Source: an uncultured Candidatus Saccharibacteria bacterium (lineage in GTDB: Bacteria; Patescibacteriota; Minisyncoccia; Minisyncoccales; UBA1441). From it: a DNA stretch of 48,255 nucleotides. A program made the position numbers and the translations under genes. The notes under the pieces were generated by a model. That model saw nothing but the letters and a program-made list of their open reading frames with translations. It had not been told where the DNA came from and searched no databases. This document shows, piece by piece, positions 1-11,915 of this stretch; within the stretch, counting starts at the first letter, position 1, and each line of letters starts with the position of its first letter. The DNA lies in contig CAYLQR010000014.1 of NCBI GenBank assembly GCA_964386365.1, forward strand, positions 1 to 48,255, in the 5' to 3' direction.

Positions 1-2648
1 TGGGGAAAAGATATCAACCTATTTATTTAAATCAACCGATTTCTCCAGCTGATTATCAGATAGTTGGGGCTGATTGGGTTTCAATTGAAGAGGGTTCTGG
101 CCTAGTCCATATTGCTCCAGCCTTTGGAGAAGATGACATGGCTTTAGGCAAAAAGCATAAGTTGTCTGTTAAAATTACAGTTGATGAAGAAGGAAAAATT
201 AAAAATGGTTTAGGACTTCCCGGGGAAGGAAAGAAGGTTTGGGAGGCCAACGAAATAATTATTCAGGATTTGGAACAGAAAAAGCTTCTCTGGAAAGAAG
301 AAAAAGTGACTCATAATTATCCTTTCTGCTGGCGTTGCGGCCAACGGTTAATTTACTATCCGCTCAATAATTGGTATATAGCTGTTAAGAAACTGCAGAA
401 AAATCTTCTTGCCAATAACAAAAAAATTTATTGGGTTCCAGCCTATTTGAAGGATGGTCGTTTTGGTCGATGGTTGGAAGAAGTTAGGGACTGGGCTGTT
501 TCCCGTAACCGTTATTGGGGAGCTCCTTTGCCAATCTGGGTTTCATCTTCAGAAACTAAAATTATTGGCTCTCGTCAGGAATTAGGTAAACAGAAGTTCA
601 CTACTAATCGTTACTGGTTGTTGCGGCATCCGGAATCAGAAACTAATCAGGCAGGAATCCTTAGCACTTCTGAGGATAAGTATCCTCTTACTCTCAAAGG
701 AAAAAAGGAATTAGAAAAAGTTTTACCGAAATTAAAGAAACAGAAAATTGATTTGATTTTTGCTTCACCCGTCCGCCGAACTAAAGAAACAGCTGAAATA
801 GTTGGCCAAGCTTTAGGGAAGAAGCCAGTCTACTGTCCGGAATTGAGAGAAAGAGAAATTGGAGTTTTTGAAGAAAAACCAGTTAGTGATTATCGCTCTT
901 TCTTTAAAAATAAATTAGAAAGGGTTACCCATAGTCCTGAAAAAGGAGAAACAGGTTTGGAAACGAAGATGAGAATGTATCGTTTTCTTCAAAAGATTGA
1001 TCGGCAGTATAAAGGGAAAAATATTCTTTTTATTAGTCATCAAGGACCGTTACGTCTTCTTCTAGCGGCTAATCAAGGATTAACTTCTCCGGAAACAGTT
1101 GATGCCTGGCCTTCTTTGACTTTCGGCTTGGCAGAATTAAGAACTCTCGACTTTAAAATTTTCCCTTACAATGAAGAAGGAGAATTGGATTTTCATCGTC
1201 CCTTTATCGATCAAGTTTATTTTCTTTCCCAAAAAGGAGAGAGAATGAAGAGAGTTGAATCAGTTTTTGATTGCTGGTTTGAGTCTGGAGCTATGCCCTA
1301 TGCTCAAAATCATTATCCTTTTGAAAATAAGAAATGGACGGAGAAAAACTTCCCCGCCGATTTTGTTTGCGAATCGATGGATCAAACTCGAGGCTGGTTT
1401 TATACCTTGAATGTTTTAGCCACTGCTTTAACTCAGAAGAATATTGGTTTAGGGAAACATCAACCAGCTTTTAAGAATGTAGTTGTTCCCGGTTTGGTTT
1501 TAAGTTCTTCTGGCCAAAAGCTTTCGAAACATTTGAAAAATTATCCTGATCCTTCTGTTTTAATGGAAAAGTATGGAGCTGATGCCCTTCGTCTTTTCTT
1601 TTTAACTAGCACCTCTTTGGGAAACAATTATTTGGTTTCCGAGGAAAATGTCCAACAGGTTTGGAGGAAGATTATTTCAACTCTTTGGAATTCTTATCAG
1701 TTCTATACTACCTATCAAAGCAAACGATCTTTTTCTTCTCCAGTTTCAAAAAACATTCTTGATCGCTGGATTATTTCCCGGCTTCATCAAGTAAATAGAG
1801 AAGTTGAAGATAAAATGACTAATTATCATTTGGATGAAGCTGCTCAATTATTAGCTGAATTTATAGATGACCTTTCAAATTGGTATATTCGCCATTCTCG
1901 TTCGCGGTTCCAAAGTGATTTTTCTTCAGAAAAGGAACAAGCTTCTTTGACTTTAGCTTTCATCCTTTTCAGGCTAAGTCTCCTCTTGGCTCCTTTCGCT
2001 CCTTTCATCAGCGAGAGGATCTATCAGGGGTTAGCGAAGGAAGAAAATTTTCCTTCTTCAGTTCATTTGAATGATTATCCTTTGGCAGAAAAGAAGGCCA
2101 TTGACTCTTCCTTGATGGAAGAGATGAAAAAAACGAAAGTAATTATTAGTTTGGGCCTTCGTCTTCGGGCAACAGCTGGGATTAAAGTTAGACAGCCTTT
2201 GGCTGAATTAAGAATTGCCGGTCAGTTTGAATTAGATCGACAATTAATAGCTCTGATTAAAGAAGCCTTGAATGTCAAAGAAGTTAATTGGGTCAAGGAA
2301 ATAAAGCCAGAAGATAGTTGGGCTGTTTACCAAGAAGGAGAAATTTCCCTTGGTTTAAAGACGGAAATGACTCCTTCTTTGGAAAAAGAAGGATGGGCAA
2401 GAGAAATTAGCCGAGCTCTTCAGACTATGAGGAAAGATCTTTCCCTCAAACCTAGGCAAATAATTGATATCTATTATCAGGCTGATTCTCCCTTGGAGAG
2501 CTTTATCGAACAAAAAAGAGCTTTCTTTTTAGAAAAAAACCGAGCTGCTAAATTAGAAAAAGGAAATCGACAAAGAAATTATGCTGCTCAGAAAGAGTTA
2601 AAGATTGGTAATTATTCTCTTTGGTTGGCTATTAATTCGAAGAAATAA
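1..2648 (+). CDS. ileS: Isoleucyl-tRNA synthetase, 5'-truncated by the window edge, with an inserted histidine-phosphatase-like domain
   Basis: The frame is open from nt 3 (..GSGLVHIAPAFGEDD..). IleRS blocks seen: RDWAVSRNRYWGAPLPIW, DFHRPFIDQV, FESGAMPYAQ, DQTRGWFYTL, and KLSKH in the KMSKS position (nt 1518-1532). About 196 aa of non-IleRS sequence lie at nt 600-1187. Confidence 0.9.
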   Translation, partial: GKRYQPIYLNQPISPADYQIVGADWVSIEEGSGLVHIAPAFGEDDMALGKKHKLSVKITVDEEGKIKNGLGLPGEGKKVWEANEIIIQDLEQKKLLWKEEKVTHNYPFCWRCGQRLIYYPLNNWYIAVKKLQKNLLANNKKIYWVPAYLKDGRFGRWLEEVRDWAVSRNRYWGAPLPIWVSSSETKIIGSRQELGKQKFTTNRYWLLRHPESETNQAGILSTSEDKYPLTLKGKKELEKVLPKLKKQKIDLIFASPVRRTKETAEIVGQALGKKPVYCPELREREIGVFEEKPVSDYRSFFKNKLERVTHSPEKGETGLETKMRMYRFLQKIDRQYKGKNILFISHQGPLRLLLAANQGLTSPETVDAWPSLTFGLAELRTLDFKIFPYNEEGELDFHRPFIDQVYFLSQKGERMKRVESVFDCWFESGAMPYAQNHYPFENKKWTEKNFPADFVCESMDQTRGWFYTLNVLATALTQKNIGLGKHQPAFKNVVVPGLVLSSSGQKLSKHLKNYPDPSVLMEKYGADALRLFFLTSTSLGNNYLVSEENVQQVWRKIISTLWNSYQFYTTYQSKRSFSSPVSKNILDRWIISRLHQVNREVEDKMTNYHLDEAAQLLAEFIDDLSNWYIRHSRSRFQSDFSSEKEQASLTLAFILFRLSLLLAPFAPFISERIYQGLAKEENFPSSVHLNDYPLAEKKAIDSSLMEEMKKTKVIISLGLRLRATAGIKVRQPLAELRIAGQFELDRQLIALIKEALNVKEVNWVKEIKPEDSWAVYQEGEISLGLKTEMTPSLEKEGWAREISRALQTMRKDLSLKPRQIIDIYYQADSPLESFIEQKRAFFLEKNRAAKLEKGNRQRNYAAQKELKIGNYSLWLAINSKK

Positions 2649-3355
2649 TGTGGGCTAAAGAGTCAGATGAAGCTTTAGTCTTAGAAGGAGAAGAGAGAGG
2701 AGAAGCTGATCGCCTCTTTACTGTTTTAGCGAGAAGGGAAGGAAAGCTTTTGCTTTTGGCAAAAGGAGAAAGAAAAGCCCTTTCTAAATTACGAAGAGGA
2801 ATTGATCTTTTTTATTACACTAGAGTGACTTTTGTGAGAACCTCGATCAGAGAAACTCTAACCGAAGTAGATTTGATTAAGAACTTTTCTTCTTTCCACC
2901 AAGATTGGCGGAAATTTAGAGTAGCTGACTGGATGGGCCAATTGGCAAATCTGACTCTTCCCAAGGGGGTTCCGGAAGAAGAAATTTTTTTTCTTCTTCT
3001 GAATAGTTGGAAAGATTTAGAAAAAGCAGAAAAATATTATCAGCGTTTCTATTATTATTTTCTTTGGCAATTGTTAAAAAAACTTGGTTATCAGCCAGAA
3101 ATCTCTTCTAGTTCTCTTTTTTTCTCGGTTCAAGAAGGAGGATTTCTAACAGAGAAAGAAAAAACAAATGAATCTTTCCTTTTGAATCCCTCGGTCCACT
3201 ATTGGTTAAAAAATATTCTTCAAGAGGAAAAAGATAAGTTTTATCAAGCTTCAATTTCTGCTAAAACAGAAAAAGATTTGAAAAAAATTTCTCAACTTTA
3301 TCTTCAGTCCCTCGGTTGGGAAAAAGATGGTCGGGGGCTTTGTTTTGAGTTATAA
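2648..3355 (+). CDS. recO: DNA repair protein RecO-like
   Basis: The N-terminus matches the RecO OB-fold pattern (ALVLEGEERGEADRLFTVLARREGKLLLLAKGERKALSKLR). Size is typical. The start overlaps the ileS stop (TAATG). Confidence 0.6.
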   Translation: MWAKESDEALVLEGEERGEADRLFTVLARREGKLLLLAKGERKALSKLRRGIDLFYYTRVTFVRTSIRETLTEVDLIKNFSSFHQDWRKFRVADWMGQLANLTLPKGVPEEEIFFLLLNSWKDLEKAEKYYQRFYYYFLWQLLKKLGYQPEISSSSLFFSVQEGGFLTEKEKTNESFLLNPSVHYWLKNILQEEKDKFYQASISAKTEKDLKKISQLYLQSLGWEKDGRGLCFEL

Positions 3356-3383
3356 TAAAAATATTATTTAAGAAGGCCTATTT

Positions 3384-5012
3384 ATGCACAAATTAGATAA
3401 ATTACTTTTGATTATTCTTTTTCTTCTCCTCTTGGGAGGAATAGCTGGCTGGTGGTATTACCAAAGGAACCAAAGTTCTAAAGGGGATTTAATTTTAAAT
3501 CTTCTTGGTCCCAATTCAGCTTCAGCTGGTCAGGAGGTGGAATACACTTTGCGTTGCCGTAATCAAGGTTCAGCAACAATTGTTCAAGCGGAGCTCTTCT
3601 TCAATTTTCCTGAACATTCTCAGCCGATCGAGCCGTCTGAAGCTAGTTTTCGTCAGGAAATTGAAAGTATTTACCCTGGCCAGGAAAAAGTTCTTACTTT
3701 TCGGGCTCGACTCTTTGGTCAAGTGGAAGAGGTAGAAACTGCCCAGGCTAAAGTCAGCTATCGCTTGAAAGGGCTAAAGGCTTATTATAATTCAGAGACT
3801 CAATTAGCAACGGTTATTGATAACATTCCTTTAACTTTTGAATTTGATCTTTCTAATTCTGTTCCTCCTCAGGAAGAATTTGAATTCTTAATTAATTATG
3901 CTTCTTACTTTGATCAACCCATCTCAAATCTAGTTATTAAATTGGAAACTCCTCCCAACTTCCAATTTATTTCCAGCCAGCCAGAAAGCATTGAAGAAGA
4001 AAGATGGGAAATTCCAACTTTATTGAAAAGAGAGGGAGGTCAGATTAAAGTTCGAGGGAAGATGGTGAAAGAAAGCGGTCAATCAGAAATCTTCCGGGCT
4101 TCTTTAGGAGTTTGGACACAAGAGCAATTTGTTAAATTGAAAGAAATTGCCCAAACAGTTGCCACTGCCCAAACGCCAGTTTATCTTTCTCAACAAATTA
4201 ATAATCGTTTAGACTATGTTGCCTCTCCCGGAGATCTTCTCCATTATGAGATTTTCTTCCGTAATGTTAGTGATTATCCTTTAGAAAAACAGCTATTATT
4301 AATTAAATTAGATGGTTCTCAATTTGATTTAGACACTCTCCGGACAACAGACGGACTTTATCAAGAAGGAGATAATTCTTTGCTTTGGGATTGGAAAAGC
4401 AATTCCGCTCTCCGCTTTCTTGATAAACGAGAAGAAGGGTCGGTAGAGTTCTGGGTCAATTTGAAAAAAGATTGGCCAGTTACCAGCCAATCGCCAGAAA
4501 TTTACAATGTAGTAGAAATTGGTCAAATTCAAAGAGTTTTCCCTTTGAAAGTCAATAGTCGTTTGGACTTGGTTCAGAAAGCCTATCATCAAGACGAATT
4601 TTTTAATGATAAAGGACCGTTTCCTTTCCAAGTTGGAAAGACAACTACCTATACTATCTTTTGGCAGGTTTCTAACTTCTGCAATTTGGTAGAAGAGGTA
4701 AAAGTAGAGACTACTCTTCCCGATGGAGCTTGGTTCAATAATCAAGCTTTCCCAGAGGATGAATTAGATAATTTAAGCTACAATAGCGCTAGCGATCTTC
4801 TCGTTTGGGAGGTTGGTCAATTAGAGCCGGAACAGCAAGCAACTCTTGCTTTTCAGCTTTCTTTTACTCCGCAAGGAGAAAGTGACACTGAACAGCCTTT
4901 GATCGAAGAAGCGACTGTTTTTGGAAAAGATCAATGGACTGAGAAAATCATTGAAGCGGTTGCCCCAATGGTTGAAAAAATTAGTCAATTAGAAAAAGAT
5001 TCAGGAGAATAA
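3384..5012 (+). CDS. Membrane-anchored extracytoplasmic protein with repeated Ig-like (DUF11/CARDB-type) modules, function unknown
   Basis: One N-terminal TM helix (LLLIILFLLLLGGIAGWWYY). Repeated segments of the type GQEVEYTLRCRNQGSATI.. and GDLLHYEIFFRNVSDYPL.. follow. Confidence 0.5.
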   Translation: MHKLDKLLLIILFLLLLGGIAGWWYYQRNQSSKGDLILNLLGPNSASAGQEVEYTLRCRNQGSATIVQAELFFNFPEHSQPIEPSEASFRQEIESIYPGQEKVLTFRARLFGQVEEVETAQAKVSYRLKGLKAYYNSETQLATVIDNIPLTFEFDLSNSVPPQEEFEFLINYASYFDQPISNLVIKLETPPNFQFISSQPESIEEERWEIPTLLKREGGQIKVRGKMVKESGQSEIFRASLGVWTQEQFVKLKEIAQTVATAQTPVYLSQQINNRLDYVASPGDLLHYEIFFRNVSDYPLEKQLLLIKLDGSQFDLDTLRTTDGLYQEGDNSLLWDWKSNSALRFLDKREEGSVEFWVNLKKDWPVTSQSPEIYNVVEIGQIQRVFPLKVNSRLDLVQKAYHQDEFFNDKGPFPFQVGKTTTYTIFWQVSNFCNLVEEVKVETTLPDGAWFNNQAFPEDELDNLSYNSASDLLVWEVGQLEPEQQATLAFQLSFTPQGESDTEQPLIEEATVFGKDQWTEKIIEAVAPMVEKISQLEKDSGE

Positions 5013-5014
5013 AA

Positions 5015-6331
5015 ATGGAAGATTTAATGGAAAAAATTGTTTCTTTGGCTAAAAGGAGAGGTTTTGTTTTCCCCAATTCTGAAATTTATGGAGGATTTAA
5101 TGCTGGCTATGATTTTGGTCCTTTGGGAACAGCGGTAGAAAAAAATATTCGGGCTGAATGGAGAAAGGCAATCGTTTCTTCTCAACCATCGGTGGTTGAG
5201 ATAAATACTCCAGTTGTTGTTCACCCTCGAGTCTGGGAAGCCTCTGGCCACCTAGGTCACTTTTCTGATCAATTAGTAGAATGTAAAAAATGTCATCATC
5301 GTTTTAAGGAAGAAGAAATCAAAGAAGGAAAATGTCCGCTTTGTGGAGGAGAATTAACTTCTCCTCGGACTTTTCATCTAATGATGAAAAGCTTCCTTGG
5401 CCCGGTAGAAGATGAACAATCAACGGTCTATTTAAGACCGGAAACTTGCCAAGGAATTTTCTTGAATTTTAAAAACGTTCTGCAATCTCAAAGGATGAAT
5501 CTTCCTTTTGGAATTGCTCAATTGGGAAAAGCTTTCCGAAATGAAATCAATCCGAAGAATTTTATTTTCCGAACTCGAGAATTTGAGCAAATGGAAATGG
5601 AATGGTTTTGCCAAAAAGAAGAAGCCGAAAAATGGTTTGACTATTGGAGAGAGCAAAGGCTGGCTTGGTATAAAAAGCTAGGAATTAAATCAGAGAATAT
5701 AAGAGTTCGAGAAACACCAACTAAAGAGCTGGCTCATTATGCTAAAAAAGCAGCTGATATTGAATATCATTTTCCTTTTGGTTGGCAAGAAATAGAGGGA
5801 ATCCACTATCGGGGAAATTATGATCTTCAAAATCATATGGAAAAGAGCGGAGAGAAATTAATCTATCGTCATCCAGAGACAAAGGAAGAAATTGTTCCTC
5901 AGGTAGTGGAAGTTTCCGCCGGACTAGAAAGAACTTTCTTAGCTTTTTTAGTTGAAGCTTATGAAGAAATAGAAGGGGGTCGAGGGAAAGCCTCTCGTCA
6001 AGAGGAAGAAGTTATTCTTCATCTTTCTCCCCGTTTAGCTCCTTTCAAAGCGGCCGTTTTCCCCCTCTTGGGCCGGAAAAAGGAATTGGAGGAGAAAAGC
6101 CGAGAAGTTTTCCAGTCTCTCCTTAATGATTTTTCAGTTATTTATGATGCTGGAGGTTCAATTGGCCGGCGTTATCGCCGTCAAGATGAAATCGGAACGC
6201 CTTTAGCAATTACGATTGATTTTCAGAGCTTAGAAGATGAAACAGTCACTTGCCGAAATAGGGAATCAATGAAACAGGTTCGGGTTCCGATTACTCAACT
6301 CCCAACAGTTATTAATCAATTGATTGCTTAA
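5015..6331 (+). CDS. glyQS: Glycyl-tRNA synthetase (dimeric class II type)
   Basis: KRRGFVFPNSEIYGG..YDFGPLG, LRPETCQGIF, FRNEI.PKNFIFRTREFEQME, and a C-terminal anticodon-binding region GRRYRRQDEIGTP. Confidence 0.9.
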   Translation: MEDLMEKIVSLAKRRGFVFPNSEIYGGFNAGYDFGPLGTAVEKNIRAEWRKAIVSSQPSVVEINTPVVVHPRVWEASGHLGHFSDQLVECKKCHHRFKEEEIKEGKCPLCGGELTSPRTFHLMMKSFLGPVEDEQSTVYLRPETCQGIFLNFKNVLQSQRMNLPFGIAQLGKAFRNEINPKNFIFRTREFEQMEMEWFCQKEEAEKWFDYWREQRLAWYKKLGIKSENIRVRETPTKELAHYAKKAADIEYHFPFGWQEIEGIHYRGNYDLQNHMEKSGEKLIYRHPETKEEIVPQVVEVSAGLERTFLAFLVEAYEEIEGGRGKASRQEEEVILHLSPRLAPFKAAVFPLLGRKKELEEKSREVFQSLLNDFSVIYDAGGSIGRRYRRQDEIGTPLAITIDFQSLEDETVTCRNRESMKQVRVPITQLPTVINQLIA

Positions 6332-6332
6332 A

Positions 6333-7595
6333 ATGGAAAAAATTATTCTTTCTAATGGATTAAGGTTGCTTTTAGTGCCTCAAAAAGAATCTCCAACCGT
6401 AACGGCTTTGATTTTAGTCGGAGCCGGTTCGAAGTATGAAACAAAAGAAATAAATGGTCTTTCTCATTTCTTAGAACATATGCTTTTTAAGGGAACGGAA
6501 AAGAGACCGACTCCCCTAGAAATTGCTTTGACTCTTGACCAAGTCGGAGGCAGCTATAATGCTTTCACTGGTCAAGAATACACCGGCTATTTTGCTAAAG
6601 TCCAAGCGAAGCATTTTCCTTTAGCTCTTGATTGGGTGAGTGATATTTTCCTTCATCCTCTTTTGCCAGCCGAGGCTCTTGAAAGAGAAAAGGGAGTTAT
6701 CTTAGAAGAGAGAAATATGTATCTTGATACTCCTTCTCAATACATTGGAGAAGTTTGGGAAAAATTACTTTATGGTGACCAGCCAGCTGGTTGGGAAATT
6801 ATTGGCCGAGAAGAAGTTATTCGGGGAGCGAATAGGGAAAAGCTAGCCGCTTACTTTCAGAGTCATTATTCTTCTCAAAATACAGTTTTGGCTTTGGCTG
6901 GCCAATTGGGAGATAAAGAAAAAATTCAGGCTGAAGTAGAAAAGATTTTTAAAGAGATGAACCAAAAGGCTCCAGCTGAAAAACTTCCGGTTAAAGAAGA
7001 ACAAGATAAACCTCAAAGTTTAATTCATTTTAAAAAGACTGACCAAAGTCATCTAGCGATAGGAGTTCGTGGTTATGACAATAAAGACGAAAGACAATGG
7101 ACTCAAGCAGTTTTGTCTACGATTTTAGGAGGAAATATGAGCTCCCGTCTTTTTACCGTTGTTCGGGAGAAAAACGGCCTAGCTTATTATGTTCGAACTT
7201 CTTCTAGAAATTATACTGACAGTGGTTATTTGACAACTCAGGCTGGCATTGCTAATCAAAAAGTAGAGAAAGCCATTCAACTAATCTTGGCGGAATACAA
7301 GAAAGTACTTCAGGGGGATGTTTCTGAAGCAGAGGTGAAAAAAGGAAAAGAATATTTGAAAGGATCTTTGGCCTTATCTTTAGAGACATCTGACGGTTTA
7401 GCTGTTTTTTATGCTCAGCAAGAATTAATAGAGCCAACAGTCTTGAGTCCTGAAGAAATAGTGAAAAAGATTGACGAAGTGACTTTAGAGAAGGTTAATC
7501 AAGTAGCCCAGGATTTATTTAAACCAGAAAAGCTTAATCTAGCTTTGATTGGCCCCTACCATCAAGGAGATTTTAGTGGTATTCTTGAATTATAA
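6333..7595 (+). CDS. M16-family zinc peptidase (insulinase-like)
   Basis: HxxEH zinc motif in GLSHFLEHMLFKGT and an M16-like overall layout. The ATG at 6333 is preferred over the TTG at 6324, which overlaps the glyQS stop. Confidence 0.85.
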   Translation: MEKIILSNGLRLLLVPQKESPTVTALILVGAGSKYETKEINGLSHFLEHMLFKGTEKRPTPLEIALTLDQVGGSYNAFTGQEYTGYFAKVQAKHFPLALDWVSDIFLHPLLPAEALEREKGVILEERNMYLDTPSQYIGEVWEKLLYGDQPAGWEIIGREEVIRGANREKLAAYFQSHYSSQNTVLALAGQLGDKEKIQAEVEKIFKEMNQKAPAEKLPVKEEQDKPQSLIHFKKTDQSHLAIGVRGYDNKDERQWTQAVLSTILGGNMSSRLFTVVREKNGLAYYVRTSSRNYTDSGYLTTQAGIANQKVEKAIQLILAEYKKVLQGDVSEAEVKKGKEYLKGSLALSLETSDGLAVFYAQQELIEPTVLSPEEIVKKIDEVTLEKVNQVAQDLFKPEKLNLALIGPYHQGDFSGILEL

Positions 7596-7597
7596 TT

Positions 7598-8638
7598 ATG
7601 GAAGGAAATTACTTAGATATTTCTTGGAAGGCTATCTTAAAGGTTGCTTTTACAGTTGCCCTTTGTTACCTTCTTTTCTTGGTTCGCCAAATTATTATTT
7701 GGTTTGTTTTTGCTTTAATTATTTCAATTCTTCTTCGATCAGTTATTGATTTTTTCCGACACTGGCGGCTTCCTCATTGGCTAGCCGTCCTCACGACTTA
7801 TCTTTTAATTTTTGGAATTCTTGGGGGAGTTATCTATTTAAGTCTGCCAGTGATTATTAAAGAAGTTCACCAGTTGATTGTTTCCTTGCCAACCTATCTT
7901 CCGGAGTTTAAAGCTTTTCTGGGTAATTTAGGAATCGAGATTCCTTTTTCTTCTTTCCAAGAGATATCAACCCGTCTTCTCCAACAAGCCCCGGGTGATA
8001 TTCTCCAGGCTTTGGGAGTGTTTTTTGGCGGTTTAGTTTCAACTTTCTTTGTTTTAACAATGGCCGTTTTCCTTTCTTTTCAGAAGCAAGGCTTTGGAGA
8101 AATTTTGGCTTTTCTTTCAGCTAAGCGTTATCAAAAAAGAATTTTGAAAGCTTGGAAAAGAAGTCGGAAAGAAGTCAGTTCTTGGTTCTGGATGAGAATT
8201 ATTGGGATTGCTTTTATTGCTGTTACTTATTTCTTAACTTATCAGCTTTTTAATATTGAAGGAGCTTTAATGTTGGGGGTTCTATCTGGTCTCCTTGATT
8301 TTATCCCTTACTTTGGGCCTTTAATTGGGGCCCTTTTGGGAGGAATCTTTGCTGGAGTTCAGGTCTCTTGGGTTTTGGGAGGAGTAATAATTATAATCCT
8401 TTTCGCTTTGCAGAATATTGAAAGCCATATTCTTTCTCCTTTGGTAGGAAAGAAGCTAATTGGACTTCCTCCTTATTTAATTCTTTTGGCGATTACTTTG
8501 GGAGCTCAACTTTTTGGCTTCTTAGGGACCATTTTAGCTATTCCGGTGGTAGCTATAATTTATCGCTTCATTATTGATTTTAAGATGGGGGAATACGAAA
8601 GAGAAAGGACAGAAGAAAGGAGAATCCCCTTGGAATAA
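7598..8638 (+). CDS. AI-2E family transporter (PerM/UPF0118-like permease)
   Basis: Polytopic membrane protein with the typical LDFIPYFGPLIGALLGG segment. Confidence 0.8.
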   Translation: MEGNYLDISWKAILKVAFTVALCYLLFLVRQIIIWFVFALIISILLRSVIDFFRHWRLPHWLAVLTTYLLIFGILGGVIYLSLPVIIKEVHQLIVSLPTYLPEFKAFLGNLGIEIPFSSFQEISTRLLQQAPGDILQALGVFFGGLVSTFFVLTMAVFLSFQKQGFGEILAFLSAKRYQKRILKAWKRSRKEVSSWFWMRIIGIAFIAVTYFLTYQLFNIEGALMLGVLSGLLDFIPYFGPLIGALLGGIFAGVQVSWVLGGVIIIILFALQNIESHILSPLVGKKLIGLPPYLILLAITLGAQLFGFLGTILAIPVVAIIYRFIIDFKMGEYERERTEERRIPLE

Positions 8639-8640
8639 TT

Positions 8641-9324
8641 ATGTCAGAAGGAATCCTCTATCTTATCGCTGGGCCGATTGGAAACCTAGAGGACTTTACT
8701 TTTCGAGCAAAAAGGATTTTAGAAGAAGTTGATTTTGTTTTAGCTGAACATCCTCGACATCTTCAGCGACTGCTTTCCTTTTATCAATTGAAGACGCCCC
8801 TTCTTTCTTATCATCAGCATACTTCTGCTTCTCAAAAGGAGAAAATTGCTGATTTATTAAAGGAAGGAAAGAATTTGGCTTTGATGACTGATGCTGGAAC
8901 TCCCGGCTTGGCTGACCCAGGAAATGAATTGATTAGCGAGTTAAAAGAAAAAATCCCTTCTTTAAAAATTATTCCTTTGCCAGGAGCTAGTGCTTTAACA
9001 ACAGCTATTAGCTGTTGCGGTTTTAAAATGGGGAAGTTTCTTTTTCTGGGCTTTCTTCCAAAAAAGAAAAGAAAAGTTTTTTTGGAGAAAATTGCTTTTT
9101 TCTCCTGGCCGGTTGTTTTTTACGAATCTCCTTACCGTCTTTTGAAAACACTAGAAGAAATATTTCAGCTTAAGCCAGATTTAGAAATTTTTATTGGTCG
9201 AGAATTGACAAAGAAATTTGAAACTCTTTATAGAGGAAAAATTGAAGCAGTTGTCTCTTCTCTTAAAAAAGGTAAGATAAAAGGAGAATTAGTAGTGATT
9301 GTCAATCACGATGGAAAAAAATAG
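8641..9324 (+). CDS. rsmI: 16S rRNA (cytidine1402-2'-O)-methyltransferase
   Basis: N-terminus LYLIAGPIGNLEDFTFRAKRILEEVDFVLAE, then DAGTPGLADPG and FYESPYRL motifs. Confidence 0.85.
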   Translation: MSEGILYLIAGPIGNLEDFTFRAKRILEEVDFVLAEHPRHLQRLLSFYQLKTPLLSYHQHTSASQKEKIADLLKEGKNLALMTDAGTPGLADPGNELISELKEKIPSLKIIPLPGASALTTAISCCGFKMGKFLFLGFLPKKKRKVFLEKIAFFSWPVVFYESPYRLLKTLEEIFQLKPDLEIFIGRELTKKFETLYRGKIEAVVSSLKKGKIKGELVVIVNHDGKK

Positions 9325-10744
9325 ATATTATCTTTCAACAGCTATTGACTATATTAATGCTGCTCCTCATTTGGGGCACGCTTTGGAAAAAATCCAGGCT
9401 GATGTTTGGGCTCGTTATCAGAGAGCTCAAGAGAAAGAAGCTTTTTTGGTGACGGGAACAGATGAGAATGGTTTAAAGGTTGCCCAAGCAGCTGAGAAAG
9501 AGAAAAAGCCATTAGCTAAATTTGCGGCTGCCAAGAGTGACGAATTTAAAAAATTAGCCGAACTTCTTGATTTGTCTTTTGATAAGTTTATCCGGACTTC
9601 TCAAAAAGAAAATGAAAAAGGAGCTCAAAAGTTTTGGAAAAAAATTAAAGCTGACATTTATCAAAAGAAGTATCAAGGGCTTTACTGCGTAGGCTGCGAA
9701 AGTTTCTTGAAAGAAAAAGAATTAGTTGATGGTCTTTGTCCAATTCATAAGACTAAGCCTCAATTGATAGAAGAAAAAAATTACTTTTTCCGACTTTCTA
9801 AATACAAAAAAGAATTGAAGAAATTGATTGAAGAAGAGGAAATGAAAATTATTCCTTCTGTTTACAAAAATCAAGCCCTTGGCTTTTTAGAAGAAGGAAT
9901 AGAGGATATGTGTATTTCTCGATCGTCAGAAAGAGCTCGTAATTGGGGATTAAATGTTCCGGGAGATTCTTCTCAGAAAATCTGGTGCTGGTTTGATGCT
10001 TTAATCAGCTACTTAACTGCTATTGGCTATGGTCAAGATAATAGCCTGTTCCAATATTGGTGGAATCAGGAAAGTCAGAAGATTCATTTTATCGGGAAAG
10101 ATATTCTGAAATTCCACGTTATTTACTGGCCCGCTATGCTCTTAGCGGCCGGCTTGCCTTTGCCGAATATTATTTACGTTCATAGTTATTTGACGATTAA
10201 TAATCAAAAGATGTCGAAGAGCCAGGGAGTGACAATTAAACCGGAAGAACTAGTTAAAAAATATTCTTCTGATGCTCTTCGTTACTTCCTTTTAAGAGAA
10301 GTTTCTTTGAACAAAGACGGTAATTTTTCAGCTACTCGTTTTCAAGAGCGTTATCAGGACGATTTAGCCAATGGTTTAGGAAACTTAACGACTCGTCTTT
10401 TAGCTCTTCCCCAATTAGATAAGGAAGAAACGGCTTTCGTTAATCTAGAGGCAGAGGAAGCAGTCGAGGAAGAAGAAAAGAAGTATCATCAGGCAATGGC
10501 TGGTTTTAATTTTAATCAAGCCTTAGTAGCTATTTGGGAGTTGATTGCTTTTTGTGATCAGTCCCTTGATCAAGAAGAACCTTGGAAAGAGAAAGAAAAT
10601 AGTCAAGAGGTGATTAATGATCTTCGTTTGGTTTTAAAGAAGATAAGTCAGCTTTTGGTTCCTTTCTTGCCAGAAACAGCGGAAAAAATTCAAAAGCAAT
10701 TAAAAGAGAAAAAAGAAAAACTCATTCTTTTCCCTAAAATCTGA
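9311..10744 (+). CDS. metG: Methionyl-tRNA synthetase
   Basis: YINAAPHLGHALE (HIGH region), CxxC..C knuckle, KMSKSQG. An alternative TTG start lies at 9299. Confidence 0.9.
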   Translation: MEKNRYYLSTAIDYINAAPHLGHALEKIQADVWARYQRAQEKEAFLVTGTDENGLKVAQAAEKEKKPLAKFAAAKSDEFKKLAELLDLSFDKFIRTSQKENEKGAQKFWKKIKADIYQKKYQGLYCVGCESFLKEKELVDGLCPIHKTKPQLIEEKNYFFRLSKYKKELKKLIEEEEMKIIPSVYKNQALGFLEEGIEDMCISRSSERARNWGLNVPGDSSQKIWCWFDALISYLTAIGYGQDNSLFQYWWNQESQKIHFIGKDILKFHVIYWPAMLLAAGLPLPNIIYVHSYLTINNQKMSKSQGVTIKPEELVKKYSSDALRYFLLREVSLNKDGNFSATRFQERYQDDLANGLGNLTTRLLALPQLDKEETAFVNLEAEEAVEEEEKKYHQAMAGFNFNQALVAIWELIAFCDQSLDQEEPWKEKENSQEVINDLRLVLKKISQLLVPFLPETAEKIQKQLKEKKEKLILFPKI

Positions 10745-11586
10745 TGAATTTTTCTCTGATTGATACTCATGCTCATTTGAATTTGGCTGCCTTTGAGGAA
10801 GATCGGCAGGAAATTATTGAAGAATGTTTGAAAGAAAAGATTGGCGTGATTAATGTCGGGACAAATTATCAGACTTCTCTTAAAGCGGTAGAATTAGCAG
10901 AGAAGTATTCAACCGGACTCTGGGCCGCTATCGGGCTTCACCCCTTGCATTTAGGGGAATCAGAGGGAGATGATTGGGAAATTAAAGGAACGGAAGGAGA
11001 AATAATGACTGGCGAAGAATTTTTAGCTAGTCAATACATTTCTTTGTTTGAATCCTCTTCTCGAGTAGTGGCTATCGGGGAAATAGGTTTGGATTATAGC
11101 CGCTTGTCGTCATTAACTGAAAAAGCTTCTTTCGTTCAGGAAAAACAAAAAGAAGCTTTAATCAAACAAATGGATTTAGCTAGAGAACTTCAGCTTCCGG
11201 TAATTATTCATTGCCGAGAAGCTTTTCCTGATTTGATTAAGCTTTTTAAATCACTTAAAGATCTTGGCCGAGGGGGAGTTATCCACTGTTTCTCTGGCCA
11301 ATGGGAAGAAGCCCGCTTCTTTTTAGAAAAAGGTTTTTACCTGGGTCTTGACGGAGTTATCTTCAAAACCAATTTAGAAGAGGTAATTACTAAAGCTCCT
11401 TTAGAAAGAATCCTAGTGGAAACAGATTGTCCCTACCTTACTCCTCCTCAAAGAAAGGGAGAAAGAAATACTCCCCTGAACTTAAAATTTATTGTTCAAG
11501 AAGTAGCTTCCCTTCGGGGAAGAAGCTTCCAAGAAATAGCTCAAGCAACAACTGAAAACGCCCAGCGTCTTTTTCTCTTTGATTGA
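10744..11586 (+). CDS. tatD: TatD-family metal-dependent hydrolase/DNase
   Basis: IDTHAHLN, GEIGLDY, IIHCREAF, VETDCPYL motifs. Confidence 0.85.
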   Translation: MNFSLIDTHAHLNLAAFEEDRQEIIEECLKEKIGVINVGTNYQTSLKAVELAEKYSTGLWAAIGLHPLHLGESEGDDWEIKGTEGEIMTGEEFLASQYISLFESSSRVVAIGEIGLDYSRLSSLTEKASFVQEKQKEALIKQMDLARELQLPVIIHCREAFPDLIKLFKSLKDLGRGGVIHCFSGQWEEARFFLEKGFYLGLDGVIFKTNLEEVITKAPLERILVETDCPYLTPPQRKGERNTPLNLKFIVQEVASLRGRSFQEIAQATTENAQRLFLFD

Positions 11587-11598
11587 GAAAGAGGAGCC

Positions 11599-11823
11599 CT
11601 ATTCGGACTCCTCTAGTATACGAACACTCCCGATTTCCTCTAGCTCCCATTTTTCTGGCTTTTGAGAGAAATAAGTTAGCAAAAGCTTCGCTGCTTCTTC
11701 CTCGTTTTTCCCTCTAACTAGAAATTCAGCTAGAGAGGGATCTTCGCCTGACTTTGGATAATGCCAAGCACTTGCCAGAAAAACGTGAGGGAACGGAACC
11801 AATTCCAGCTTTTTCGTTTCCAC
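11599..11823 (-). CDS. Small hypothetical protein (74 aa from a GTG start)
   Basis: A GGAGG Shine-Dalgarno (11836-11832) sits 8 nt upstream of GTG 11823. The TTG at 11844 used by the ORF track lies upstream of the transcription start predicted from the consensus promoter at 11846-11873. Confidence 0.55.
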   Translation of the reverse strand: METKKLELVPFPHVFLASAWHYPKSGEDPSLAEFLVRGKNEEEAAKLLLTYFSQKPEKWELEEIGSVRILEESE

Positions 11824-11845
11824 TTGACTCACCTCCTTTTCCAAT

Positions 11846-11873
11846 ATTATAGAGCAAGGTTTCCCTTTGTCAA
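11846..11873 (-). promoter_or_regulatory. Consensus sigma70-type promoter TTGACA-N16-TATAAT for the 74 aa ORF
   Basis: On the minus strand, -35 TTGACA (11873-11868), a 16 nt spacer, then -10 TATAAT (11851-11846). This is the best match to consensus in the window. Confidence 0.5.
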
Positions 11874-11877
11874 TTCT

Positions 11878-11906
11878 TTGAAAGTTTCTTCTTTTTCGTT
11901 TATCAT
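11878..11906 (+). promoter_or_regulatory. Putative leuS promoter TTGAAA-N17-TATCAT
   Basis: -35 at 11878-11883 and -10 at 11901-11906. Only 9 nt separate the -10 from the ATG at 11916 and there is no SD, so a leaderless or near-leaderless mRNA is predicted. Confidence 0.4.
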
Positions 11907-11915
11907 TGTTCTACT

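What the first reader, a model, noticed from the sequence alone, without database searches (positions are those of the whole stretch)
600..1187. Complete histidine-phosphatase (phosphoglycerate-mutase-like) domain intercalated inside isoleucyl-tRNA synthetase
In the IleRS sequences I can recall (for example the Thermus type), only about 30-40 residues separate the block W-A-[IV]-SR-x-RYWG-x-P-[LI]P-[IV]W from the block D-x-HRP-[YF]-[IV]-D. Here those blocks are RDWAVSRNRYWGAPLPIWV (nt 486-542) and LDFHRPFIDQV (nt 1185-1217). About 196 extra residues sit between them in one continuous frame. They carry, in the canonical order, all four signatures of the histidine phosphatase superfamily. These are LLRHPESETN (RHGxxxxN, with R at nt 624 and the nucleophile H at nt 627), FASPVRRTKETAEIV (SPxxRxxxTA), ELREREIGVFEEKP (E..G..EG) and LFISHQGPLRLLL (second His at nt 1038). 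Both IleRS halves look intact, including KLSKH in the KMSKS position. It therefore reads as a domain insertion into an essential enzyme, with a potentially active phosphatase core, rather than a decayed gene. I am not aware of an aaRS described with this insert. A phosphatase held next to the aminoacylation site could act on a nucleotide by-product or alarmone, or on a phosphorylated tRNA 3' end. That is pure speculation.
Basis: partly seen in the sequence, partly recalled or inferred. Interest (0 to 1): 0.8.

Follow-up and report, generated by a model that had tools for sequence, protein, structure and literature searches.

The report
Active phosphatase domain inside isoleucyl-tRNA synthetase
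The isoleucyl-tRNA synthetase of this tiny-genome (Patescibacteria) bacterium carries a complete histidine-phosphatase enzyme spliced into its catalytic core; relatives keep the same phosphatase either inside the synthetase or as a separate gene directly in front of it, which points to an undescribed partnership between the two.

Summary
The type-2 IleRS gene runs off the left edge of the window (nt 3-2648, the last 881 of 1157 aa). It holds a roughly 200-aa His_Phos_1 domain (Pfam E=7e-32) at nt ~585-1184.

- **Position:** the domain replaces a 6-10-residue loop in the CP3 subdomain.
- **Not an artefact:** at least 117 protein clusters (41-75% identical) and 57 insert-bearing loci in a species-representative genome set carry it. 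All named ones are Parcubacteria/Paceibacteria.
- **Likely active:** the R-H-R-E/D-H set is kept in 193 of 197 CP3 inserts.
- **Separate-gene form:** in relatives without the insert, including cultured Minisyncoccus archaeiphilus, a 185-198-aa homologue lies between argS and ileS in 9 of 9 loci checked, often overlapping the ileS start. In insert-bearing genomes argS abuts ileS.
- **Other arrangements:** two further insertion sites in IleRS, tandem copies, rarer fusions to ArgRS, TsaC and QueC, and one lineage with no copy at this locus.
- **What it is not:** it reaches no characterised subfamily cut-off, and Minisyncoccus has its own gpmA and ppaC.

Nine literature searches found no description.

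Best reading: an active PhoE/CobC-like phosphomonoesterase dedicated to IleRS. The substrate is unknown; I lean towards a nucleotide-type small molecule.

The parts
3..2648 (+). 3' part of ileS (type-2 isoleucyl-tRNA synthetase): the last 881 of 1157 codons plus the stop. The 5' end lies outside the window.
   Evidence: Translation. Pfam finds tRNA-synt_1 (in two stretches), Anticodon_1 and DUF5915. The full-length P0001 scores 841.5 bits on TIGR00392 ileS against a cut-off of 621.4. The AF2 model matches IleRS2 8c8v at TMt 0.81 and 1ile at TMt 0.90.
486..521 (+). CP2-CP3 linker motif RDWAVSRNRYWG, the last catalytic-core landmark before the insert.
   Evidence: This is the same motif as yeast IleRS 453-ARDWNVSRNRYWG-465, which lines the tRNA-A76/reveromycin pocket (PMC7955072). 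W440, R444, R446, W448 and G449 are invariant in 117 homologues.
522..584 (+). Proximal half of CP3 (APLPIWVSSSETKIIGSRQEL). It is a zinc knuckle in relatives; the first-knuckle Cys is replaced by Ser here.
   Evidence: At the scored first-knuckle position (P0001 residue 457), 97 of 117 homologues have Cys; the window has Ser. It corresponds to Cys461/Cys464 of T. thermophilus IleRS by the alignment.
585..1184 (+). Inserted histidine-phosphatase (His_Phos_1) domain with its two short linkers (P0001 residues ~471-670).
   Evidence: Pfam PF00300 at E=7e-32, or 4.5e-33 when scanned alone. AF2 of the domain alone gives pLDDT 94.2 and pTM 0.90. Foldseek finds TM 0.72-0.74 to Rv2419c, PspA and CobC. 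The boundaries come from comparison with the insert-less P0100 and with 1ILE.
624..629 (+). Arg484-His485 of the RHG motif (RHP in this protein). His485 is the putative phospho-accepting nucleophile.
   Evidence: R and H are each present in 117 of 117 insert-bearing homologues. The third position is G in 105 and P in 5.
777..779 (+). Arg535, the second phosphate-binding arginine (motif SPVRRTKETA).
   Evidence: Present in 116 of 117 homologues.
849..851 (+). Glu559, the putative proton donor (motif ELRExxxG).
   Evidence: E in 83 and D in 34 of 117 homologues. G563 is invariant.
1038..1040 (+). His622, the second catalytic histidine (motif ISHQGP).
   Evidence: Present in 117 of 117 homologues. 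The full R-H-R-E/D-H pentad is kept in 193 of 197 CP3 inserts.
1185..1268 (+). Distal half of CP3 (LDFHRPFIDQVYFLSQKGERMKRVESVF). The second pair of zinc-knuckle Cys is replaced by S and K.
   Evidence: H674, P676 and D679 are invariant. Positions 685 and 687 are Cys in 97 of 117 homologues but S and K here. They correspond to Cys502/Cys504 of 1ILE.
1518..1532 (+). KLSKH, the KMSKS-loop signature of the synthetic site.
   Evidence: Read from the sequence. K782 and K785 are invariant in the 77-sequence alignment.
2648..3355 (+). recO. Its start overlaps the ileS stop by one base. It belongs to the conserved smpB<-, argS->, (hisphos), ileS, recO gene order.
   Evidence: Pfam RecO_N and RecO_C. 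The same gene order is found in loci L001-L072.

Best explanation
A catalytically competent PhoE/CobC-like histidine phosphatase is a dedicated partner of type-2 IleRS in Parcubacteria/Paceibacteria. In the window's lineage it is spliced into the tip of the CP3 subdomain, which is itself an insertion in the Rossmann-fold catalytic domain just after the CP2-3 linker that lines the tRNA-A76 pocket.

**Shown**
- The insertion is real, old and widespread.
- The IleRS body is intact.
- The phosphatase catalytic pentad is under purifying selection in every genomic form.
- The same protein family is either inside IleRS or encoded immediately upstream of it, a Rosetta-stone pattern.

**Inferred**
- The domain forms a phospho-histidine intermediate on His485 and hydrolyses a phosphomonoester while held on IleRS. 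Arg484, Arg535 and His622 would bind the phosphate and Glu559 would protonate the leaving group.
- Physical placement on the catalytic domain matters for its job.

**Most likely substrate class (weakly supported)**
A small nucleotide-type phosphate ester linked to adenylate chemistry, such as AMP or another nucleotide by-product or inhibitor, rather than a macromolecule. The nearest characterised relatives are small-molecule phosphatases; CobC acts on a 5'-nucleotide analogue. The clade's other fusion partners (ArgRS, TsaC, QueC) share ATP -> AMP + PPi chemistry with IleRS, and two of them do not bind tRNA.
For: **Real and intact**
- Pfam His_Phos_1 at E=7e-32 sits inside a split tRNA-synt_1 match.
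- The full protein passes the ileS equivalog cut-off.
- AF2 of the full protein gives pLDDT 91.6 and pTM 0.84, with both linkers above pLDDT 90. Its body matches IleRS2 structures at TMt 0.81-0.90.

**Widespread**
- 117 of the best 120 homologue clusters carry the insert at 41-75% identity.
- 57 insert-bearing loci were found in a one-genome-per-species collection, spanning Colwell-, Nomura-, Taylor-, Yanofsky-, Wolfe-, Zambryski- and Falkowbacteria and others.

**Catalysis under selection**
- R484 and H485 are present in 117/117, R535 in 116/117, E/D559 in 117/117 and H622 in 117/117.
- The pentad is kept in 193/197 CP3 inserts, 2/2 site-B copies, 5/5 site-C-classed instances and 161/162 free-standing proteins.

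**Coupling to IleRS**
- Free-standing homologues of 185-198 aa lie directly upstream of an insert-less ileS in 9 of 9 loci inspected. Five overlap its start by 4-8 nt.
- In insert-bearing genomes argS abuts ileS with no free copy between them.
- The domain was inserted at three or more different sites in IleRS and occurs in tandem copies.
- No simple N-terminal fusion was seen, although the operon form would make that the easiest fusion to produce.
- All 90 long aaRS-containing hits are IleRS. The window's own MetRS and LeuRS show no His_Phos match.

**Substrate class**
- Closest by sequence are CobC, PspA and PhoE. Closest by fold are Rv2419c, PspA and CobC.
- The same clade is fused to ArgRS, TsaC and QueC.
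Against: - No biochemical data exist. No score reaches any characterised subfamily cut-off, so the substrate cannot be read from homology.
- One lineage nested among insert-bearers (P0100/L070) has neither an insert nor an adjacent gene, so the module is dispensable there, unless a copy lies elsewhere in that genome.
- Patescibacterial housekeeping genes fuse promiscuously. TsaC, for example, is fused to MGMT-like, TruB, CPDase, GNAT and NUDIX domains. Some associations could therefore be neutral.
- Minisyncoccus already has a family-II pyrophosphatase and an adenylate kinase. A simple need for PPi or AMP removal is therefore not obvious.
- The TsaC fusion is rare (4 clusters). The QueC and ArgRS fusions were each seen once.
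- I could not obtain model coordinates, so the distance and orientation of His485 relative to the synthetic site are unknown.
Confidence: 0.5

Rival explanations
1. The phosphatase acts on a macromolecule at the synthetase. One option is that it removes a 3'-(pyro)phosphate or other blocking phosphate from the CCA end of tRNA-Ile so that the tRNA can be charged (end healing, or defence against toxins). The other is that it dephosphorylates IleRS itself or a partner protein, reversing inactivation by a kinase.
For: - The insert sits in CP3, about 25 residues after the CP2-3 linker that forms the tRNA-A76 pocket in yeast IleRS.
- AF2 predicts it to be rigidly docked.
- All three insertion sites lie in or next to the catalytic domain.
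- The substrate-capping region is short.
- From my own knowledge: short caps are typical of superfamily members that take protein substrates (SixA, Sts-1, PGAM5). Toxins are known that pyrophosphorylate tRNA CCA ends or phosphorylate aaRSs (toxSAS, HipA family).
Against: - The same clade is fused to TsaC and QueC, which do not bind tRNA.
- The nearest characterised relatives by sequence and by fold are all small-molecule phosphatases.
- Nothing explains why only tRNA-Ile or IleRS would need this.
- To my knowledge, no histidine phosphatase is known to work on RNA ends.
Confidence: 0.2
2. The phosphatase is an unrelated housekeeping metabolic enzyme, for example a broad-specificity sugar-phosphate or phosphoserine phosphatase or a phosphoglycerate mutase. 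On this view it merely shares expression with ileS. The fusions are neutral by-products of genome streamlining with no mechanistic link to aminoacylation.
For: - Patescibacterial genes overlap and fuse readily.
- The best NCBIfam hit is an archaeal dPGM model.
- The module can be lost from this locus.
- Automatic annotation calls the Minisyncoccus gene a dPGM.
Against: - Three or more independent internal insertion sites in an essential enzyme, plus tandem copies, are hard to explain as neutral.
- No simple terminal fusion to IleRS was seen.
- The association persists across IleRS-body distances of about 0.8-1.0 substitutions per site.
- Minisyncoccus has a separate bona fide gpmA (MNSC_05730, KOfam score 279). 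The ileS-adjacent gene scores only 23, and the organism lacks complete glycolysis.
- Mutase model scores are far below their cut-offs: 95 against 225, and 19 against 81.7.
Confidence: 0.2
3. The domain is a non-catalytic structural, tRNA-binding or regulatory module that has kept the phosphatase fold.
For: The window protein has RHP instead of RHG. From general knowledge, many accessory domains of aaRSs are non-catalytic.
Against: The full R-H-R-E/D-H set, plus N491, G563, E592 and R600, is conserved across hundreds of divergent copies in all genomic forms. That pattern is not expected for a pseudo-enzyme.
Confidence: 0.05
4. The feature is an assembly chimera, a recent mobile-element insertion, or a decaying gene.
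For: None was found. The only weak point is that the window is metagenomic and I mapped no reads.
Against: - The same junctions occur in at least 117 clusters and 57 genome loci drawn from JGI, ENA, NCBI and Logan assemblies.
- The reading frame is continuous and the IleRS motifs are intact.
- There is no GC discontinuity and there are no flanking repeats.
Confidence: 0.01

Closest known systems
Histidine phosphatase superfamily branch 1, PhoE/CobC/PspA/Rv2419c-type small phosphatases (COG0406)
   Same: It has the same fold (TM 0.72-0.74) and the same R-H-R-E-H catalytic set. Its size is similar at about 190-200 aa, and it has the short cap typical of the phosphatase members rather than the true mutases.
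   Different: It falls below every curated subfamily cut-off. It is embedded in, or obligately adjacent to, an aminoacyl-tRNA synthetase. Its substrate is unknown.
Type-2 (eukaryote-like, mupirocin-resistant-type) bacterial IleRS, e.g. T. thermophilus 1ILE and P. megaterium IleRS2 8C8U/8C8V
   Same: It shares the domain order, the HYGH and KMSKS-type motifs, the CP1 editing domain, the C-terminal DUF5915 region and the CP3 knuckle.
   Different: About 200 extra residues lie inside CP3. In the window's clade the four zinc-binding cysteines of CP3 have been lost.
NCBIfam NF040702 'isoleucine--tRNA ligase, N-acetyltransferase domain-containing' (ileS_w_GNAT)
   Same: It is a curated precedent for an IleRS that carries an extra enzymatic domain. 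Some patescibacterial IleRS (P0192) carry a GNAT domain next to the His_Phos insert.
   Different: The window protein scores 281 bits against a cut-off of 1999 and has no GNAT domain. In that model the GNAT appears to lie elsewhere, inferred from the profile coordinates.
Rv2228c-type bifunctional RNase H / CobC-like acid phosphatase (NCBIfam NF005567)
   Same: A CobC-like histidine phosphatase is covalently joined to a nucleic-acid enzyme. It is the third-best NCBIfam hit for the insert, at 67-72 bits.
   Different: That case is a terminal fusion, not an internal insertion. The partner is different and the score is far below the cut-off of 326.
Hint (HIT family) working with LysRS on aminoacyl-adenylates; TFIIIC tau55 histidine-phosphatase domain (both from my own knowledge, not tested here)
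   Same: Both are examples of a His-nucleophile hydrolase functionally attached to an aaRS or to the tRNA-gene machinery.
   Different: Hint has a different fold. Neither is inserted in a synthetase, and neither is homologous to this arrangement.

Membership tests
Histidine phosphatase superfamily, branch 1 (Pfam PF00300) | Match to the family HMM above the gathering threshold | tested here: met
   111.1 bits in context and 115 bits alone, against a cut-off of 21.7.
Histidine phosphatase superfamily, branch 1 (Pfam PF00300) | RHG-motif Arg and nucleophile His, a second Arg, an acidic proton donor and a second His, in the canonical order | tested here: met
   R484, H485, R535, E559 and H622 are all present. 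Each is conserved in 116-117 of 117 homologues, and the pentad is kept in 193 of 197 CP3 inserts. The window has RHP rather than RHG.
Histidine phosphatase superfamily, branch 1 (Pfam PF00300) | The alpha/beta fold of the superfamily | tested here: met
   The AF2 model has pLDDT 94.2. Foldseek gives TM 0.72-0.74 and E~1e-12 to Rv2419c, PspA and CobC.
Histidine phosphatase superfamily, branch 1 (Pfam PF00300) | Phosphoryl transfer through a phospho-histidine intermediate (enzymatic activity) | not testable with these tools
   Needs purified protein. Only the conservation of the catalytic residues supports it.
Cofactor-dependent phosphoglycerate mutase (NF038349 dPGM_arch; TIGR01258 pgm_1) | Score above the curated equivalog or subfamily cut-off | tested here: not met
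   95-99 bits against 225, and 19 bits against 81.7. Minisyncoccus carries a separate true gpmA.
Alpha-ribazole phosphatase CobC (TIGR03162, NF011580) | Score above the curated equivalog cut-off | tested here: not met
   77-82 bits against 162.9, and 54-59 bits against 250.
Isoleucyl-tRNA synthetase (TIGR00392 ileS) | Score above the curated equivalog cut-off on the full-length protein | tested here: met
   P0001 scores 841.5 bits against 621.4. The window fragment alone scores 503.5 because it is truncated.
Isoleucyl-tRNA synthetase (TIGR00392 ileS) | Class-I signatures (HxGH, KMSKS) and the CP1 editing-domain motifs | tested here: met
   HYGH at P0001 residues 48-51, KLSKH at 782-786 and WTTTPWT at 218-224, all invariant or nearly so.
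Type-2 IleRS | Closest to IleRS2/eukaryote-like structures; C-terminal region of the DUF5915 type rather than the zinc-binding IleRS1 type | tested here: met
   1ile E=3e-205 against IleRS1 1ffy 5e-83. DUF5915 is found. Foldseek gives 8c8v TMt 0.81 against IleRS1 8c9e 0.74.
ileS_w_GNAT (NF040702) | Score above the cut-off and presence of a GNAT domain | tested here: not met
   281 bits against 1999. There is no acetyltransferase hit in the window protein.

The most novel reading that the evidence does not exclude
The IleRS-bound phosphatase is a previously unknown quality-control or repair activity of an aminoacyl-tRNA synthetase. It would act at the synthetic site on a phosphorylated form of a substrate. 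One candidate is a 3'-phosphorylated or pyrophosphorylated tRNA-Ile CCA end. Another is a phosphorylated adenylate-mimicking inhibitor. Dephosphorylation would be coupled to charging and would protect translation in these parasitic bacteria. Repeated insertion at three sites around the catalytic core and the GNAT co-insertion would then be variants of one defence or repair module.
Probability: 0.12. Interest if true: 0.9.

Novelty: new variant of a known kind. Interest (0 to 1): 0.68.

Why it matters
Aminoacyl-tRNA synthetases are among the most intensively studied enzymes. Their accessory domains (editing, tRNA-binding and signalling modules) have repeatedly revealed new biology.

Here a second, apparently active catalytic centre of a different enzyme class is tied to IleRS across a large bacterial radiation, in four genomic forms:
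- a translationally coupled upstream gene;
- an insertion in CP3;
- insertions at two other sites;
- tandem arrays.

That pattern is the classical signature of a functional partnership, yet no phosphatase step is known in isoleucine charging.

The question can be tested directly. The partner pair exists in a cultured organism with a complete genome, Minisyncoccus archaeiphilus (MNSC_03170/MNSC_03180). The fused proteins are ordinary soluble enzymes that can be expressed.

The outcome would matter in either direction. It might uncover a new auxiliary reaction of translation, such as product or inhibitor removal, tRNA-end repair or regulation. Alternatively it would give a clear case of how streamlined genomes build multifunctional proteins by internal domain insertion.

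Tried and rejected
1. **Assembly chimera or mobile element.** Rejected. The junctions recur in many independent assemblies, and there is no GC shift and there are no flanking repeats.

2. **The domain is the cell's glycolytic phosphoglycerate mutase.** Rejected as the main reading.
   - Model scores are far below the cut-offs.
   - Minisyncoccus has a separate gpmA (KOfam 279), while the ileS-adjacent gene scores 23.
   - The organism lacks complete glycolysis.

3. **The domain substitutes for a missing inorganic pyrophosphatase.** Not supported. Minisyncoccus encodes a family-II PPase (MNSC_01950) and an adenylate kinase. That supplementary file was cut when stored, so absences in it are not reliable.

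4. **Apparent split ileS genes at the insert (L048, L050) and a remnant insert (L061).** These are artefacts. L050 and L061 contain masked runs of N. L048 has a single break.

5. **Direction of evolution (upstream gene to insert, or the reverse).**
   - A rough NJ tree of the IleRS body interleaves the two states, and support is weak. The smallest clade holding all upstream-gene forms has 35/100 bootstrap.
   - P0100, which has no insert, is nested among insert-bearers, which suggests loss.
   - I draw no firm conclusion about direction.

6. **Geometry of the phosphatase relative to the synthetic site.** The structure tool returns no coordinates, so I could measure neither distance nor orientation. 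I have only pLDDT and pTM and fold matches.

7. **Literature.** Nine full-text searches, including combinations of IleRS, aaRS, histidine phosphatase, phosphoglycerate mutase, CPR, Parcubacteria, Patescibacteria and GNAT, found no description. Subscription-only papers are not covered.

8. **Census by the genome scan.** The 62 of 599 figure is therefore not a frequency.


Full report
**1. What is in the window**

Frame 3 of the + strand is open from nt 3 to the stop at 2646-2648. It encodes the last 881 residues of a 1157-aa protein, P0001. The window's parent contig is a 77,128-bp JGI metagenome contig, on which ileS starts 2 nt after argS ends.

Pfam finds the following on the window fragment:
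- tRNA-synt_1, split into two stretches;
- His_Phos_1 (PF00300) at 111 bits, E=7e-32, on fragment residues 205-361 (nt 615-1085);
- Anticodon_1;
- DUF5915.

The full protein passes NCBI's ileS equivalog model, 841.5 against 621.4 bits.

The other class-Ia synthetases in the same window, MetRS (9299-10744) and LeuRS (11916-14333), show no His_Phos match.

**2. Where the insert sits**

Against T. thermophilus IleRS (1ILE), residues 3-471 align to 9-477 and residues 671-1003 align to 488-821. About 200 residues therefore replace a loop of about 10.

A close relative without the insert, P0100, reads 'IGSVKELKAPGLQDLHRPMID' at this place.

In yeast IleRS the corresponding region is CP3 (residues 459-526). 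The preceding CP2-3 linker, 453-ARDWNVSRNRYWG-465, lines the tRNA-A76/reveromycin pocket (PMC7955072). The window has RDWAVSRNRYWG at nt 486-521.

In most homologues the insert lies between the two halves of a Cys4 zinc knuckle. By the alignment these are Cys461/464 and Cys502/504 of 1ILE. At the three scored knuckle positions, 97 of 117 homologues keep Cys, but the window's clade has lost it.

**3. Artefact or real?**

- 117 of the best 120 homologue clusters (41-75% identity, about 1140-1226 aa) have the same insert of 206-230+ residues at the same place.
- A scan of one genome per GTDB species gave 62 loci. Of these, 57 are full or partial IleRS with a single CP3 insert. The remaining five are:
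  - the split-gene form (L058);
  - a two-copy protein (L059);
  - two broken genes (L048, L050);
  - one masked locus (L061).
- The named loci are Parcubacteria/Paceibacteria candidate phyla.
- GC content is flat across the junctions, at 0.34-0.41, and no repeats flank the insert.
- AF2 of the whole protein gives pLDDT 91.6 and pTM 0.84, with both linkers above pLDDT 90. Its body superposes on IleRS2 structures at TMt 0.81-0.90.

The insert is old, fixed, and compatible with an intact synthetase.

**4. Is the phosphatase alive?**

The catalytic residues are conserved in the 117 insert-bearing homologues:

| Residue | Conservation |
|---|---|
| R484, H485 | 117/117 each |
| N491 | 96/117 |
| R535 | 116/117 |
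| E/D559 | 117/117 |
| G563, E592, R600, H622 | 117/117 each |

Across 384 domain instances, the R-H-R-E/D-H pentad is kept as follows:
- 193 of 197 CP3 inserts;
- all copies at the other insertion sites;
- 161 of 162 free-standing proteins.

The domain alone folds with pLDDT 94.2. It resembles the phosphatase members of the superfamily at TM about 0.72-0.74: Rv2419c, PspA, CobC, a riboflavin-pathway phosphatase, TIGAR and PhoE. By sequence, CobC, PspA and PhoE are the closest solved proteins.

It reaches no curated subfamily cut-off. Examples are dPGM_arch at 95 against 225 bits and CobC at 77 against 163 bits. It is thus a histidine phosphatase of unassigned specificity.

The domain evolves about 1.5 times faster than the IleRS body but roughly in step with it (Spearman 0.45).

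**5. The key comparative result**

In Minisyncoccus archaeiphilus PMX.108 (cultured, complete genome), a 195-aa homologue is a separate gene. Its stop overlaps the start of an insert-less ileS by 4 nt (L058). In the species description these genes are MNSC_03170 and MNSC_03180.

A search with that protein found 185 relatives. The 120 listed are 184-221 aa and carry His_Phos only.

All seven relatives whose context I fetched, plus the gene upstream of P0106, lie between argS and an insert-less ileS. Counting Minisyncoccus, that is 9 of 9. Five overlap ileS by 4-8 nt.

In insert-bearing genomes, argS is followed directly by ileS with no free copy in between. The order smpB<-, argS->, ileS, recO is otherwise the same.

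One lineage nested among insert-bearers (P0100/L070) has neither form at this locus.

The phosphatase is therefore found in IleRS or immediately before it. This is a Rosetta-stone pattern.

**6. More variants**

Using an HMM built from the inserts, I found His_Phos at three or more sites in patescibacterial IleRS:

| Site | Position | Examples |
|---|---|---|
| A | CP3, single or two in tandem | P0184, P0226, P0244 (tandem) |
| B | Between DCWFESG and DQTRGWF | P0179, P0238 |
| C | After KMSKS, before the anticodon-binding domain | P0139, P0179, P0259, L059 |

Other observations:
- One truncated protein, P0123, has four copies.
- All 90 long hits that contain an aaRS part are IleRS.
- No protein has the domain N-terminal to the HIGH motif, although that would be the simplest fusion to arise from the operon form.
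- Rarer partners of the same clade are ArgRS (C-terminal fusion, P0220), TsaC/Sua5 (four clusters) and QueC (P0255).
- P0192 combines His_Phos with a GNAT domain, and has a RAYT transposase-like segment in the CP1 region.

**7. Mechanism**

*Shown.* An intact IleRS2 carries, or is translationally coupled to, a histidine phosphatase whose catalytic residues are under purifying selection.

*Inferred.* The domain works as a phosphomonoesterase through phospho-His485 while held on the catalytic domain. Position matters: there are three internal sites, no terminal fusion to IleRS, and the linkers are predicted to be rigid.

*Substrate.* It is unknown. I lean towards a small nucleotide-type phosphate ester connected with adenylate chemistry, for two reasons:
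- The nearest characterised relatives are small-molecule phosphatases. CobC takes a 5'-nucleotide analogue.
- The other fusion partners (ArgRS, TsaC, QueC) share ATP -> AMP + PPi chemistry with IleRS, while TsaC and QueC do not bind tRNA.

*Weakened readings.* Two specific versions are less likely. Minisyncoccus has its own gpmA and lacks complete glycolysis, so the domain is not simply the cell's mutase. It also has a family-II pyrophosphatase and an adenylate kinase, so it is not simply a missing PPase.

*Rivals still open.* Macromolecular substrates (a blocked tRNA-Ile 3' end, or phospho-IleRS) and a neutral hitch-hiker enzyme both remain possible. Promiscuous fusions of patescibacterial TsaC show that not every fusion in these genomes need be functional.

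**8. Comparison with what is known, and novelty**

It is a member of the histidine phosphatase superfamily by HMM, residues and fold, all tested and met. The host is a bona fide type-2 IleRS, also tested and met. It is not a member of the dPGM, CobC, PspA or SixA equivalog families, nor of NCBI's ileS_w_GNAT family (tested, not met).

Extra domains on synthetases are a known theme. An enzymatically competent phosphatase inserted in CP3, interchangeable with an operon partner, is not described in any paper I could find in nine searches.

The proteins themselves are in public databases under generic names such as 'class I tRNA ligase family protein'.

I rate it a new variant of a known kind. It is of real interest to synthetase and Patescibacteria specialists, and it can be tested directly because a cultured organism carries the split form.

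Noticed in passing
window 522-584 and 1185-1268: The zinc-knuckle cysteines of CP3 are replaced in the window's IleRS: the scored first-knuckle position is Ser (VSSSE) and the second pair is S and K (LSQKG). At each of the three scored positions, 97 of 117 homologues keep Cys. About 20 homologues share the loss.
   Followed up: partly
window 1-14333: The start of the window holds an unusually dense cluster of aminoacyl-tRNA synthetase genes. The order is ileS, recO, a DUF11 protein, a class-II synthetase (tRNA-synt_2b plus HGTP_anticodon; its counterpart in L070 also has a faint GlyRS_ins_1 hit, so probably GlyRS), an M16 peptidase, an AI-2E transporter, a TP_methylase-family protein, MetRS, TatD and LeuRS. 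argS lies just upstream on the parent contig.
   Followed up: partly
P0192 (homologue, 1066 aa, truncated): This IleRS has three foreign segments. One is a REP-associated tyrosine transposase-like domain (NCBIfam 81.3 bits against a cut-off of 80; Pfam Y1_Tnp) inside the CP1 region. The other two are a His_Phos domain followed by a GNAT acetyltransferase domain.
   Followed up: partly
P0139, P0179, P0238, P0259, P0123; L059:4398-7196: His_Phos domains also occur at two other positions in IleRS: between DCWFESG and DQTRGWF, and after KMSKS. They also occur as tandem arrays of two to four copies. All keep the catalytic residues.
   Followed up: partly
P0220, P0164 (plus P0390-P0392), P0255: The same phosphatase clade is fused to the C-terminus of ArgRS, to TsaC/Sua5 (the threonylcarbamoyl-AMP synthase for t6A; four clusters), and to QueC.
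   Followed up: partly
P0393-P0505 (hits): Patescibacterial TsaC is fused to many different domains. Most often the partner is an MGMT-like DNA_binding_1 domain (PF01035). Other partners are TruB, a 2H/CPDase phosphoesterase, GNAT, NUDIX and a methylpurine glycosylase domain.
   Followed up: no
L058:7663-9935 and L063:2717-4937; L071:6942-10898: In the Minisyncoccus lineage, two hybrid response-regulator/HATPase genes sit between argS and the phosphatase gene. In another lineage, dCache/PAS histidine-kinase and response-regulator genes follow ileS. Whether this is linked to the phosphatase is unknown.
   Followed up: no
L070 (P0100): This IleRS is nested among insert-bearing relatives (distance 0.22) and has cleanly lost the insert, leaving the loop 'KAPGLQD'. 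No phosphatase gene is present at the locus.
   Followed up: partly
L048, L050, L061: Apparent split or remnant ileS genes at the insert are caused by masked runs of N (L050, L061) or by a single break (L048). They are not biological.
   Followed up: yes
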